From NCBI RefSeq assembly GCF_013122565.1, contig NZ_CP053258.1: a stretch of DNA of 64,000 bases. One strand, given 5' to 3'. Source of the DNA: Escherichia coli (lineage in GTDB: Bacteria > Pseudomonadota > Gammaproteobacteria > Enterobacterales > Enterobacteriaceae). Below are positions 29,401-32,400 of this stretch, piece after piece (within the stretch, counting starts at the first letter, position 1; each line of letters starts with the position of its first letter). Made by a program: the position numbers.

Positions 29401-32400
29401 CCAGGCGAGTGCGGGAGCGACGTTAACTGTCACCTACCAGGGCTGTGCTGATGCCGGTTTCTGTTATCCGCCAGAAACCAAAACCGTTCCGTTAAGCGAA
29501 GTGGTCGCCAACAACGCAGCGTCACAGCCTGTGTCTGTTCCGCAGCAAGAGCAGCCCACCGCGCAATTGCCCTTTTCCGCGCTCTGGGCGTTGTTGATCG
29601 GTATTGGTATCGCCTTTACGCCATGCGTGCTGCCAATGTACCCACTAATTTCTGGCATCGTGCTGGGCGGTAAACAGCGGCTTTCCACTGCCAGGGCATT
29701 GTTGCTGACCTTTATTTATGTGCAGGGGATGGCGCTGACTTACACGGCACTGGGTCTGGTGGTTGCCGCCGCAGGGTTACAGTTCCAGGCGGCGCTACAG
29801 CACCCATACGTGCTCATTGGCCTCGCCATCGTCTTTACCTTGCTGGCGATGTCAATGTTTGGCTTGTTTACTCTGCAACTCCCCTCTTCGCTGCAAACGC
29901 GCCTCACGCTGATGAGCAATCGCCAACAGGGCGGCTCACCTGGCGGTGTGTTTATTATGGGGGCGATTGCCGGACTGATCTGTTCACCATGCACCACCGC
30001 ACCGCTTAGCGCGATTCTGCTGTATATCGCCCAAAGCGGAAACATGTGGCTGGGCGGCGGCACGCTTTATCTCTATGCGTTGGGCATGGGCCTGCCGCTG
30101 ATGCTAATTACCATCTTTGGTAACCGCTTGCTGCCGAAAAGCGGCCCGTGGATGGAACAAGTCAAAACCGCGTTTGGTTTTGTGATCCTCGCACTGCCGG
30201 TCTTCCTGCTGGAGCGAGTGATTGGTGATATATGGGGATTACGCTTGTGGTCGGCGCTTGGTGTCGCCTTCTTTGGCTGGGCCTTTATCACCAGCCTACA
30301 GGCCAAACGCGGCTGGATGCGCGTGGTGCAAATAATCCTGCTGGCAGCGGCATTGGTTAGCGTACGCCCACTTCAGGATTGGGCATTTGGTGCGACGCAT
30401 ACCGCGCAAACTCAGACGCATCTCAACTTTACGCAAATAAAAACGGTAGATGAGTTAAATCAGGCGCTCGTTGAAGCCAAAGGCAAACCGGTGATGTTAG
30501 ATCTCTATGCCGACTGGTGCGTCGCCTGTAAAGAGTTTGAGAAATACACCTTCAGCGACCCGCAGGTGCAAAAAGCGTTAGCAGACACGGTCTTACTTCA
30601 AGCCAACGTCACTGCTAACGACGCCCAAGATGTGGCGCTGTTAAAGCATCTTAATGTCCTTGGCCTACCGACAATTCTCTTTTTTGACGGACAAGGCCAG
30701 GAGCATCCACAAGCACGCGTCACGGGCTTTATGGATGCTGAAACCTTCAGCGCACATTTGCGCGATCGCCAACCGTGAACGACACTTGCAGTGGGAAAGA
30801 CGGAGGAAAATAGCGTGCAACGTGAAGATGTACTGGGAGAAGCCCTGAAATTATTAGAATTACAAGGGATTGCCAACACCACGCTGGAGATGGTTGCTGA
30901 ACGTGTGGATTATCCACTGGACGAGCTGCGCCGCTTCTGGCCAGACAAAGAGGCAATCCTCTACGATGCGCTGCGTTATCTTAGCCAACAGATAGATGTC
31001 TGGCGTCGTCAGCTGATGCTGGACGAAACGCAAACCGCCGAACAAAAGCTGCTGGCACGTTATCAGGCGTTATCGGAGTGCGTTAAAAACAACCGCTATC
31101 CGGGCTGTCTATTTATCGCTGCCTGTACGTTTTATCCCGATCCTGGCCACCCTATTCATCAACTGGCCGATCAGCAAAAAAGCGCGGCCTACGATTTCAC
31201 CCACGAACTGTTAACCACGCTGGAAGTTGACGATCCGGCGATGGTAGCAAAGCAGATGGAACTGGTGCTGGAAGGCTGTTTAAGCCGAATGCTGGTGAAT
31301 CGTAGCCAGGCGGATGTCGACACCGCACATCGGCTGGCGGAAGATATCCTGCGCTTCGCCCGCTGCCGCCAGGGTGGCGCACTGACCTGACAGAAACACA
31401 GAAAAGAAGCGATTTGCCGCAATCTTAAGCAGTTGAATCGCTTTTACTGAAATTAGGTTGACGAGATGTGCAGATTACGGTTTAATGCGCCCCGTTGCCC
31501 GGATAGCTCAGTCGGTAGAGCAGGGGATTGAAAATCCCCGTGTCCTTGGTTCGATTCCGAGTCCGGGCACCAAATTCATATAAACGGACCTCCACGGAGG
31601 TCCGTTTTTCGTTTCAGGACGCCACGATTTAAGCGTTCTGCCTACAAATCAATTCTCCCGAACTCAACCAGATTCTCCCCACATCACCAGCATTTTGCGG
31701 GTATATCCCAATTAGGGAAAATTTGTTCCTGAGCGATAGCACTGACTGACGTGAAATGTCGTGCGGCCCCGTGATGCTGTTGAACGTCAAATGACGTCAT
31801 CAGGAGCGTAACGCATCCATAAAGCACAACACCGGTCTGAACGGCGACTGATGAGATTTTCTGAATGAGAACAAAGAGAAATTTATCAGTCCGCTTGCTC
31901 ATGCAAAGACTAACAATCCATTAAAATAGTAAGCGCTCCGGACAATTTTCCATGGATTATTTTCTGAACATTTTTCTTTGGCAAAGATGATGAATTTTGA
32001 TGGTAAGGAATATTACTTCTGGTTCTCAGTAAAATCCTTTCGTAATACTATGTAATCAAGAAGTTTATGGCTGGTAAAAATAACGTCTTGCATTCACCAA
32101 TAATATGTAAATAAACCCATCTATAGATGGTAAAAATAGGTTGTGGCAATTATCATTGCATCATTCCCTTTTCGAATGAGTTTCTATTATGCAACAACCT
32201 GTAGTTCGCGTTGGCGAATGGCTTGTTACTCCGTCCATAAACCAAATTAGCCGCAATGGGCGTCAACTTACCCTTGAGCCGAGATTAATCGATCTTCTGG
32301 TTTTCTTTGCTCAACACAGTGGCGAAGTACTTAGCAGGGATGAACTTATCGATAATGTCTGGAAGAGAAGTATTGTCACCAATCACGTTGTGACGCAGAG

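What the first reader, a model, noticed from the sequence alone, without database searches (positions are those of the whole stretch)
31573..32188. pheU-cadC spacer: tRNA integration hotspot with no island
Phe tRNA genes are frequent integration sites for genomic islands in Escherichia. Here the 616 bp downstream of pheU contain only the tRNA terminator and the cadC promoter region; there is no integrase and no direct repeat of the tRNA 3' end. A 72-aa minus-strand ORF (31684-31902) has no recognisable features and is probably spurious. This makes the locus a useful negative for island scanning.
Basis: seen in the sequence. Interest (0 to 1): 0.1.

Follow-up and report, generated by a model that had tools for sequence, protein, structure and literature searches.

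The report
Integrase fossil beside the pheU tRNA
The gap between the phenylalanine tRNA gene pheU and cadC holds no current island, but about two-thirds of it is the decayed left end of an old mobile island, including a gutted integrase gene that public annotation already lists as a pseudogene, so it is an ordinary feature and not a clean negative.

Summary
The coordinates are right. pheU is at 31497-31572, cadC starts at 32189, and the spacer is 616 bp. There is no intact integrase. No second copy of the pheU 3' end occurs anywhere in the 64-kb window.

The claim that the spacer holds only a terminator and the cadC promoter is wrong. Bases 31573-31995 (423 of 616 bp) match the left end of present-day pheU islands:
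- the sequence just after the tRNA, including the terminator hairpin;
- the first 11 codons of a P4-type tyrosine integrase, with the start codon now ATA;
- a deletion scar where about 345 codons are missing;
- the last ~64 codons, frameshifted, then the stop codon and ~66 bp beyond it.

RefSeq annotates this as an integrase pseudogene. The same deletion junction occurs in three other Escherichia species-level genomes, so the fossil is old. The 72-aa minus-strand ORF lies antisense to the fossil and is broken in two of those genomes, so it is spurious.

pheU is still a live integration site: about a quarter of sampled complete E. coli genomes carry an island between pheU and this same spacer.

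One unproven reading: the adjoining cadC-cadB-cadA-dtpC-lysU block sits at different places in other species and may be the old island's cargo.

Known kind, low interest.

The parts
31497..31572 (+). tRNA-Phe (GAA), pheU. Its last 23 nt (31550-31572, TTCGATTCCGAGTCCGGGCACCA) are the core used by incoming islands.
   Evidence: ARAGORN and Rfam tRNA at 68.3 bits. In E. coli 779 a 66-kb island lies between pheU and a 22-nt imperfect copy of this core. Matches in occupied genomes start at query base 151, which is window 31550.
31582..31607 (+). Terminator-like hairpin for pheU (11-bp stem, 4-nt loop, then a T run). Its sequence is of island origin.
   Evidence: The 40 nt after pheU match at 35/40 or better only in Escherichia loci and in three other genera that carry an intact integrase of the same subfamily. 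63 other species loci score 17/40 or less (two of them, L013 and L085, do match once a 1-nt gap is allowed).
31573..31735 (+). Relic of the island's tRNA-to-integrase leader (attL side).
   Evidence: Window 31497-31705 is 93% identical to pheU plus the following 133 bp at the left end of the 779 island. A gapped alignment carries the match on to the integrase start.
31736..31768 (+). First 11 codons of the integrase fossil (IALTDVKCRAA against MALTDAKIRAA). The start codon has decayed to ATA at 31736-31738.
   Evidence: tblastn and alignment. The ATG is retained in E. whittamii, Escherichia sp. E1V33 and strain SCPM-O-B-8794.
31762..31767 (+). Deletion junction (TGCGGC microhomology) joining integrase codon ~11 to codon ~357. 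About 345 codons are missing.
   Evidence: The left and right local alignments to the intact gene overlap on these 6 bases. The same junction is present in all five Escherichia sequences of alignment A1.
31770..31929 (+). C-terminal ~64 codons of the integrase fossil, read in two frames with an internal stop. A 16-nt deletion removes the stretch that aligns to NGVRAAY in the intact protein. The stop codon TAG is at 31927-31929.
   Evidence: PGAP pseudogene 'tyrosine-type recombinase/integrase; frameshifted; missing N-terminus'. tblastn to the 420-aa integrase WP_001218797.1 gives E = 3e-10, and blastn gives 70% identity over 250 columns at E = 1e-31. Fine map.
31930..31995 (+). About 66 bp of island sequence downstream of the integrase stop codon; right-hand limit of the fossil.
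   Evidence: The alignment to the 779 island continues to window 31995.
31996..32122 (+). 127 bp of AT-rich DNA of unassigned origin, conserved among the Escherichia genomes that have pheU next to cadC. It may hold the cadC promoter (not mapped).
   Evidence: Alignment A1. No homology to the island left end or to cadC upstream regions of other genera. GC is 0.39-0.44.
32123..32188 (+). 66-bp leader that travels with cadC, marking the left edge of the cadC-cadB-cadA-dtpC-lysU module (32123-40924).
   Evidence: Homology to the E. fergusonii cad locus starts at 32123 and to Raoultella at 32134. It ends at 40924, the lysU stop codon.
31684..31902 (-). 72-aa ORF, antisense to the integrase fossil; not a gene.
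   Evidence: Broken by frameshifts and stops in E. whittamii and SCPM-O-B-8794. No Pfam or NCBIfam match. Not annotated in RefSeq genomes.

Best explanation
The pheU-cadC spacer is an unoccupied but scarred attachment site.

How it arose (inferred from established knowledge of P4/CP4-57-type tRNA-integrating islands):
- A P4/CP4-type island once integrated into the 3' end of pheU using a tyrosine recombinase.
- Such islands replace the end of the tRNA gene with their own copy and bring the sequence that follows it, here including the terminator hairpin.
- The integrase gene then lost about 345 internal codons in a single deletion at a 6-bp microhomology. It later lost its start codon and picked up further frameshifts and small deletions.
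- This happened before E. coli split from several sister Escherichia lineages, because they share the same junction.

What remains at 31573-31995 is the island's leader, the first 11 and last ~64 integrase codons, and ~66 bp past the stop codon. The fossil cannot encode an active enzyme. The DNA-binding arm domain, the central domain and most of the catalytic domain are gone, including the stretch that aligns to NGVRAAY (which, from my recollection of P4-type integrases, contains the catalytic tyrosine).

The remaining 193 bp (31996-32188) belong to cadC's upstream region. Only the last 66 bp of that travel with cadC in other species.

The tRNA gene and its 23-nt core are intact, so the site still accepts new islands. 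These land between pheU and the fossil. The 72-aa minus-strand ORF is a chance open frame across the fossil.
For: - Independent annotation of an integrase pseudogene at the equivalent of 31770-31929 in many RefSeq E. coli genomes.
- Direct homology to an intact pheU-island integrase (Arm-DNA-bind_3 + Phage_int_M + Phage_integrase domains): 93% identity over pheU plus 133 bp; first 11 codons 8/11 identical; C-terminal part E = 3e-10 by tblastn and 1e-31 by blastn. Junction and limits mapped.
- The same junction is present in E. whittamii, Escherichia sp. E1V33 and strain SCPM-O-B-8794. The left part is also present in E. albertii.
- The post-tRNA 40 nt are shared only with loci that carry this fossil or an integrase of this subfamily.
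- The site is live. In strain 779 the order is pheU, intact integrase, a ~66-kb island, a 22-nt repeat, then the same fossil spacer and cadC. 11 of 40 evenly spaced E. coli records begin their match 23-49 nt before the end of pheU (10 of them at the 23-nt core), against 27 of 40 that are contiguous.
- The ORF is not conserved and has no family match.
Against: - No attR repeat of the old island is detectable, so its original extent is unknown.
- The C-terminal homology is only ~70% at DNA level against 93% for the leader. This unevenness is unexplained; it could mean later recombination with incoming islands or a different integrase subfamily.
- Termination at the hairpin, and the absence of any transcript or peptide from the fossil, are inferred and were not measured.
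Confidence: 0.92

Rival explanations
1. One reading: the spacer is plain intergenic DNA holding only the pheU terminator and the cadC promoter, with no trace of any island, so it is a clean negative control.
For: There is no intact integrase ORF. There is no repeat of the tRNA 3' end in the window. The terminator hairpin is present.
Against: An integrase pseudogene is annotated by PGAP. 423 of the 616 bp align to the left end of a modern pheU island. The terminator region itself is shared almost only with loci that carry this fossil or an integrase of this subfamily.
Confidence: 0.04
2. The old island is still there. The cadC-cadB-cadA-dtpC-lysU module (32123-40924), perhaps with the ghoST toxin-antitoxin pair up to ~41762, is the cargo the fossil integrase brought to pheU, later fixed in the E. 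coli lineage. On this view the fossil marks the left end of a domesticated island rather than of one that was deleted.
For: - The module starts 127 bp after the fossil ends, in the position and orientation of first cargo.
- pheU-cadC adjacency occurs only in Escherichia among 80 species loci. The DNA downstream of pheU is hypervariable: no ORF cluster is found in more than 8 of 52 sequences (51 species loci plus the window).
- The same five genes, with the same edges, sit between unrelated genes in E. fergusonii, Raoultella and Pseudescherichia vulneris.
- In E. fergusonii the module lies on the 3' side of another tRNA gene, serX.
- In strain E69 exactly 31575-41762 is replaced as one unit.
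- GC drops to 0.35-0.44 from 31600 to ~34000.
Against: - No attR is found anywhere in the 32 kb downstream.
- The copies in Raoultella and P. vulneris have no tRNA gene or integrase nearby.
- cadB, cadA and dtpC have ordinary GC.
- The alternative order of events fits equally well: an island inserted between pheU and a cad module already in place, then lost its cargo and attR by deletion.
Confidence: 0.4
3. The 72-aa minus-strand ORF (31684-31902) encodes a real small protein.
For: It is open in this window, in K-12 and in Escherichia sp. E1V33. A promoter-like site on the minus strand lies at 31984-31956, upstream of it.
Against: - It is frameshifted or stopped in E. whittamii and SCPM-O-B-8794.
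- It lies antisense to a decaying pseudogene.
- It has no Pfam or NCBIfam hit and is not annotated in RefSeq.
- One promoter-like site is within chance expectation (mean 1.6 in shuffles).
Confidence: 0.03
4. The fossil has been co-opted as part of cadC's regulatory region. Transcription starting in the old integrase leader would read through the fossil into cadC.
For: - The fossil and cadC face the same way, and no + strand terminator is predicted between 31608 and 32188.
- A genomic SELEX study lists an RpoH holoenzyme binding peak at K-12 position 4360430 in the cadC/pheU spacer (PMC5493296). By K-12 coordinates recalled from memory, that is about window 31716, inside the old leader.
Against: - No mapped cadC start site was found.
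- The fossil region shows indels between Escherichia species, whereas the 190 bp next to cadC are far better conserved. This points to the proximal region as the functional one.
- The coordinate conversion rests on memory.
Confidence: 0.1

Closest known systems
Integrase pseudogene between pheU and cadC in E. coli K-12 (RefSeq locus NEB5A_RS26035 in NEB 5-alpha; catalogued in K-12 as yjdQ, 'P4-like integrase remnant', as I recall it)
   Same: Same position, strand and sequence. The K-12 spacer is also 616 bp, and the 901-bp region around it is 98.9% identical.
   Different: Only point differences. PGAP marks only the C-terminal 160 bp. The leader, the first 11 codons, the junction and the 66-bp tail were added here. 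No paper mentioning yjdQ was found in the searchable library, so that name rests on memory.
Islands integrated at tRNA-pheU/pheV in E. coli (papGII pathogenicity islands, LEE of O26, the EAEC pheU island) and their shared P4/CP4-type integrase
   Same: Same attachment site (between yjdC and cadC), same integrase family, same leader sequence after the tRNA.
   Different: The window has no intact integrase, no bounded cargo and no repeat. It has only the fossil left end.
Loss or replacement of the cad region in Shigella and enteroinvasive E. coli ('black holes'; established knowledge, not tested here)
   Same: The cad block next to pheU behaves as a replaceable unit. In strain E69 window 31575-41762 is replaced by a restriction-modification pair, with an autotransporter gene further on.
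   Different: In this window cadC, cadB and cadA are intact ORFs.

Membership tests
Occupied tRNA-linked genomic island (P4/CP4 type) | Intact tyrosine integrase gene next to the 3' end of the tRNA gene | tested here: not met
   Only a fossil with ~345 codons deleted, no start codon and frameshifts. No long ORF on the + strand of the spacer.
Occupied tRNA-linked genomic island (P4/CP4 type) | Direct repeat of the tRNA 3' end marking the far boundary (attR) | tested here: not met
   No copy with fewer than 8 of 23 mismatches in the 64-kb window. Nothing above shuffles in 31900-32188.
Occupied tRNA-linked genomic island (P4/CP4 type) | Cargo that is variably present or differently placed among relatives | tested here: inconclusive
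   The cad module sits elsewhere in E. fergusonii, Raoultella and P. vulneris. It is present in 5229 of 5426 E. coli genomes, and no boundary repeat defines it.
Tyrosine recombinase, P4-like (Arm-DNA-bind_3 / Phage_int_M / Phage_integrase) | Sequence homology to family members | tested here: met
   tblastn E = 3e-10 and blastn E = 1e-31 to WP_001218797.1 and its gene. That protein has all three Pfam domains. PGAP names the pseudogene accordingly.
Tyrosine recombinase, P4-like (Arm-DNA-bind_3 / Phage_int_M / Phage_integrase) | Complete catalytic domain with the conserved Arg/His/Arg/Tyr residues in an open frame | tested here: not met
   Codons ~12-356 are absent. The stretch aligning to NGVRAAY is removed by a 16-nt deletion. 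There is an internal stop and a frame change. The stitched translation gives no Pfam hit. That NGVRAAY holds the catalytic tyrosine is from my recollection of P4-type integrases.
Intrinsic (rho-independent) terminator | G+C-rich hairpin followed by a U run directly after the gene | tested here: met
   31582-31607: 11 pairs, 6 of them G-C, then TTCGTTT. -18.4 kcal/mol, z = -4.5. Actual termination was not measured.
Attachment site (attB) of pheU/pheV islands | Intact core at the tRNA 3' end that is used by islands in related genomes | tested here: met
   The core 31550-31572 is identical to that flanking the 779 island. 11 of 40 sampled E. coli records are occupied at this site. Literature.
Small protein-coding gene (72-aa ORF) | Reading frame preserved among relatives, or a match to a protein family | tested here: not met
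   Broken in 2 of 4 other Escherichia sequences. No Pfam or NCBIfam match.

The most novel reading that the evidence does not exclude
The 'empty' pheU site may in fact hold the oldest island at this hotspot. On this reading the fossil integrase delivered the 8.8-kb cadC-cadB-cadA-dtpC-lysU module (32123-40924), possibly with ghoST, to pheU in an ancestor of E. coli and its sister clades. The Cad acid-stress system of E. coli would then be a domesticated island whose far boundary has eroded. The same module has moved as a unit several times in Enterobacteriaceae, and in E. fergusonii it sits on the 3' side of tRNA-Ser serX.
Probability: 0.4. Interest if true: 0.35.

Novelty: already known. Interest (0 to 1): 0.12.

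Why it matters
- For island scanning, this locus should not be used as a clean negative. It contains real integrase homology next to a tRNA gene, and it is occupied in roughly a quarter of sampled E. coli genomes. A good scanner should call it 'remnant, no active island'.
- The sequence just after a tRNA gene, terminator included, can be island-derived even where no island is left.
- If the cargo reading holds, it gives a simple account of how the Cad acid-resistance module came to sit at this spot in E. coli, and why the block is so easily lost or replaced in Shigella-like lineages.

Tried and rejected
- **Degenerate attR.** I searched for copies of the last 14, 17, 23 and 30 nt of pheU on both strands of the whole window, and ran a gapped search of 31900-32188 against shuffles. 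Nothing turned up.
- **RNA families.** An Rfam scan of 31300-32400 at E up to 1 found only the tRNA and two chance-level hits.
- **cadC promoter.** The promoter scan found no + strand sigma-70-like site in the spacer. Paper searches for a mapped cadC start site found none, and the paper id I tried for a transcription-start-site dataset is not held in the library.
- **yjdQ.** No paper mentions the name in the searchable library. A search for cadC with 'P4-like integrase' and 'pseudogene' returned only unrelated papers.
- **O121 boundary.** I considered that the O121 strain, whose match begins at 31992 (almost exactly the fossil's right edge), keeps an undeleted ancestral integrase. It does not: an ISEc8 element at the end of an efa1 island abuts that point.
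- **Integrase relics beside other cad modules.** I looked in E. fergusonii, Raoultella and P. vulneris and found none. The 452 bp between lysU and serX in E. fergusonii are RtT-type repeats.
- **Ancestral right-hand neighbour of pheU.** I tried to define it across genera. The region is too variable. Only a Kosakonia/Phytobacter group shares genes with the window (yjdF, proP, and a 292-aa ORF at 62242-63120 that I take to be yjcZ), and these lie 17-31 kb away in the window.
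Full report
**What the window is.** It is an E. coli-type chromosome segment with the gene order dsbD, yjdC (dicD), pheU, cadC, cadB, cadA, dtpC, lysU, ghoT/ghoS, yjdJ, yjdI, dcuS. Gene names come from RefSeq annotation of matching genomes. tRNA-Phe (GAA) is at 31497-31572 on the + strand and cadC is at 32189-33727.

**Checking the observation.**
- A strong hairpin with a T run follows the tRNA at 31582-31607. It folds at -18.4 kcal/mol, z = -4.5, and none of 200 shuffles does as well.
- No intact integrase ORF lies in the spacer.
- The last 23 nt of pheU have no second copy in the 64-kb window at up to 3 mismatches. With looser limits, the best other sites have 8 of 23 mismatches, and the 14-nt and 17-nt cores have none. 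The cadC-proximal part of the spacer shows nothing above shuffled controls.
- The 72-aa minus-strand ORF is at 31684-31902.
- So the coordinates, the terminator, the lack of a working integrase and the lack of a repeat are all confirmed.

**What was missed.** A search of 5,426 complete E. coli genomes found this region in 5,425 of them. In most, RefSeq annotates a 'tyrosine-type recombinase/integrase' or 'integrase' feature in the spacer. In K-12 NEB 5-alpha, strain 06-00048 and strain 779 it is a pseudogene flagged 'frameshifted; incomplete; missing N-terminus', at the equivalent of window 31770-31929 +.

**Mapping the relic.** I compared the spacer with a genome whose pheU site is occupied. 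In strain 779 (NZ_CP086220.1) the order is pheU, an intact 420-aa integrase (WP_001218797.1) 197 bp downstream and in the same direction, a ~66-kb island (Druantia defence genes, fimbrial and pgt operons, Ag43 and others), then a 22-nt imperfect copy of the pheU end, then the same spacer and cadC. That integrase has the three Pfam domains of P4-type enzymes: Arm-DNA-bind_3, Phage_int_M and Phage_integrase.

Against this left end, the window gives the following matches:
- 31497-31705 (pheU plus 133 bp) is 93% identical.
- 31736-31768 translates to IALTDVKCRAA against MALTDAKIRAA, integrase codons 1-11.
- 31770-31926 matches codons 359-420 in two frames (RDAVERQM...; DFLNENKEKFISPLAHAKTNNPLK). 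tblastn gives E = 3e-10 and blastn gives 70% identity at E = 1e-31.
- Gapped alignment places the deletion junction on a 6-bp overlap, TGCGGC, at 31762-31767. It shows two further small deletions in the C-terminal part and continues ~66 bp past the stop codon (TAG, 31927-31929) to 31995.

So 423 of the 616 bp (31573-31995) are the fossil of an island's left end. The integrase has lost about 345 codons, and its start codon is now ATA.

**Age and spread.**
- Aligned spacers from K-12, E. whittamii, Escherichia sp. E1V33 and strain SCPM-O-B-8794 (the last three are separate species-level representative genomes) all show the same junction. Those three still have the ATG, and two keep the 16-17 nt that E. 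coli has lost in the stretch aligning to NGVRAAY.
- E. albertii shares the left part up to 31726 before its contig changes.
- The big deletion therefore predates the split of these lineages.

**The terminator is island DNA.** Among 71 species loci with at least 40 bp after pheU, the window's first 40 nt (including the hairpin) recur at 35/40 or better only in the five Escherichia loci and in Leclercia, Trabulsiella and Klebsiella spallanzanii. Those three are exactly the non-Escherichia loci that carry an intact integrase 76-77% identical to the 779 enzyme. The other 63 loci score 17/40 or less. Two of these 63 (L013, and L085, which has an integrase remnant) do match once a 1-nt gap is allowed. 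The hairpin may well terminate pheU transcription, but its sequence came with this island family.

**The site is still in use.**
- In an evenly spaced sample of 40 of the 5,432 matching records, 27 were contiguous like the window. Eleven began their match 23-49 nt before the end of pheU (ten of them at query base 151, the first base of the 23-nt core), which means an island lies between pheU and the fossil. One was cut by an IS element.
- Papers use the yjdC-cadC interval as the tRNA-pheU site for papGII islands and LEE (PMC7686366; bioRxiv 10.1101/549998).
- Across 52 sequences (51 Enterobacteriaceae species loci plus the window) with at least 3 kb after pheU, no ORF cluster is found in more than 8. 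Several of the 80 species loci carry intact or decayed integrases directly after pheU.

**The 72-aa ORF.** It runs antisense across the fossil. It is open in the window, K-12 and E1V33 but is frameshifted or stopped in E. whittamii and SCPM-O-B-8794. It has no Pfam or NCBIfam match and is not annotated in RefSeq.

**The rest of the spacer.**
- Bases 31996-32188 are AT-rich and well conserved among the Escherichia genomes.
- Only the last 55-66 bp travel with cadC elsewhere. Homology to the E. fergusonii cad locus begins at 32123 and to Raoultella at 32134.
- I could not place the cadC promoter.
- A SELEX study lists an RpoH-holoenzyme peak at K-12 position 4360430 in the cadC/pheU spacer (PMC5493296). 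By K-12 coordinates that I recall from memory, this falls near window 31716, in the old integrase leader. It is a lead, not a finding.

**Is the cad block the old island's cargo?**
- CadC homologues led to three contexts in which the same five genes (cadC, cadB, cadA, dtpC, lysU) are kept together but flanked by unrelated genes:
  - E. fergusonii: pgaDCBA and dgcT, then the module, then RtT repeats, tRNA-Ser and ghrA.
  - Raoultella: acyltransferase genes, then the module, then amidohydrolase and carbamate kinase genes.
  - Pseudescherichia vulneris: ypdAB, alaC, a MIP channel gene and a DUF1375 gene, then the module, then a DUF2058 gene and mqo.
- The shared DNA runs from window 32123 to 40924, the lysU stop codon.
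- In E. fergusonii the module lies on the 3' side of serX.
- Outside Escherichia, none of the species loci has cadC within 8-10 kb of pheU.
- In strain E69 exactly 31575-41762 (fossil, module and ghoST) is replaced by a restriction-modification pair, with yjdJ/yjdI and then an autotransporter gene following.
- These facts fit a module that arrived at pheU as cargo of the fossil's island. They fit equally well an island that landed in front of a module already there and then lost its cargo.
- No attR survives to decide, and the Raoultella and P. vulneris copies have no tRNA gene or integrase nearby. I put the cargo reading at about 0.4.

**Comparison with what is known.** The integrase remnant is the pseudogene already annotated in RefSeq genomes. 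As I recall, K-12 gene catalogues list it as yjdQ, a P4-like integrase remnant, but no paper in the searchable library mentions that name. The hotspot itself is textbook. This work adds a finer map (leader, first 11 codons, junction, tail), the shared junction across Escherichia species, the island origin of the terminator, and the precise edges of the movable cad module.

**Verdict.** The feature is an already known kind of thing: a decayed integrase at an unoccupied tRNA attachment site. It is of low interest in itself. Its practical value is as a caution that this locus is not a clean negative for island finders.

Noticed in passing
window 32123-40924; loci L090, L091, L092: cadC-cadB-cadA-dtpC-lysU behaves as one 8.8-kb movable module with sharp edges (66 bp before cadC to the lysU stop codon). 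It sits between unrelated genes in E. fergusonii, Raoultella and Pseudescherichia vulneris. In E. fergusonii it lies on the 3' side of tRNA-Ser serX, after RtT repeats.
   Followed up: partly
window 49214-49217 (yjdF 48567-49217 abuts melA 49214-50569): melB is missing. Most E. coli genomes have about 1.6 kb carrying melB between yjdF and melA. A few (for example NT1F34, AZ 189, GN04275) share the deletion.
   Followed up: partly
L010 10759-20573 (E. coli strain E69, CP089930.1): Window 31575-41762 (fossil, cad module, ghoST) is replaced by a 219-aa protein gene plus a cytosine-methyltransferase-like gene. These are followed by yjdJ/yjdI, a 1322-aa serine-protease-type autotransporter gene and an AraC-type regulator gene. 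No integrase is present.
   Followed up: partly
L006 10644-12659; also L007 and many non-Escherichia loci: E. whittamii, Escherichia sp. E1V33 and many other genera have extra DNA between yjdC and pheU that the window and K-12 lack (about 2.1 kb in the two Escherichia species, about 1.5 kb in many other genera). In E. whittamii (L006) it holds a 671-aa ORF of unknown function; the other loci were not inspected.
   Followed up: no
whole window (tested at 31400-32300, 33800-39200, 48300-51000): None of 5,426 complete E. coli genomes matches exactly. The best identities are 99.2%, 99.6% and 98.5%, so the source lineage is not in that collection.
   Followed up: no
window ~31716 (from K-12 position 4360430; coordinate conversion from memory): A genomic SELEX study lists an RpoH (sigma-32) holoenzyme binding peak in the cadC/pheU spacer (PMC5493296). 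It would fall in the old integrase leader.
   Followed up: no
window 41043-41540: The ghoT/ghoS-like toxin-antitoxin pair (57 and 98 aa, minus strand) sits in a GC trough (0.35) right after the cad module. This is typical of island-borne addiction modules.
   Followed up: no
L094 5425-7000 (E. coli O121 GTVSS-020): An ISEc8 element at the end of an efa1/lifA island abuts window position 31992. It removes the repeat and the whole fossil, and the breakpoint nearly coincides with the fossil's right edge.
   Followed up: yes
window 31573-31705 versus 31762-31995: The fossil's leader is 93% identical to the modern island, but its coding relic is only ~70% identical. This might reflect recombination between the fossil and incoming islands, which in occupied genomes share ~150 bp of direct repeat with it.
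   Followed up: no
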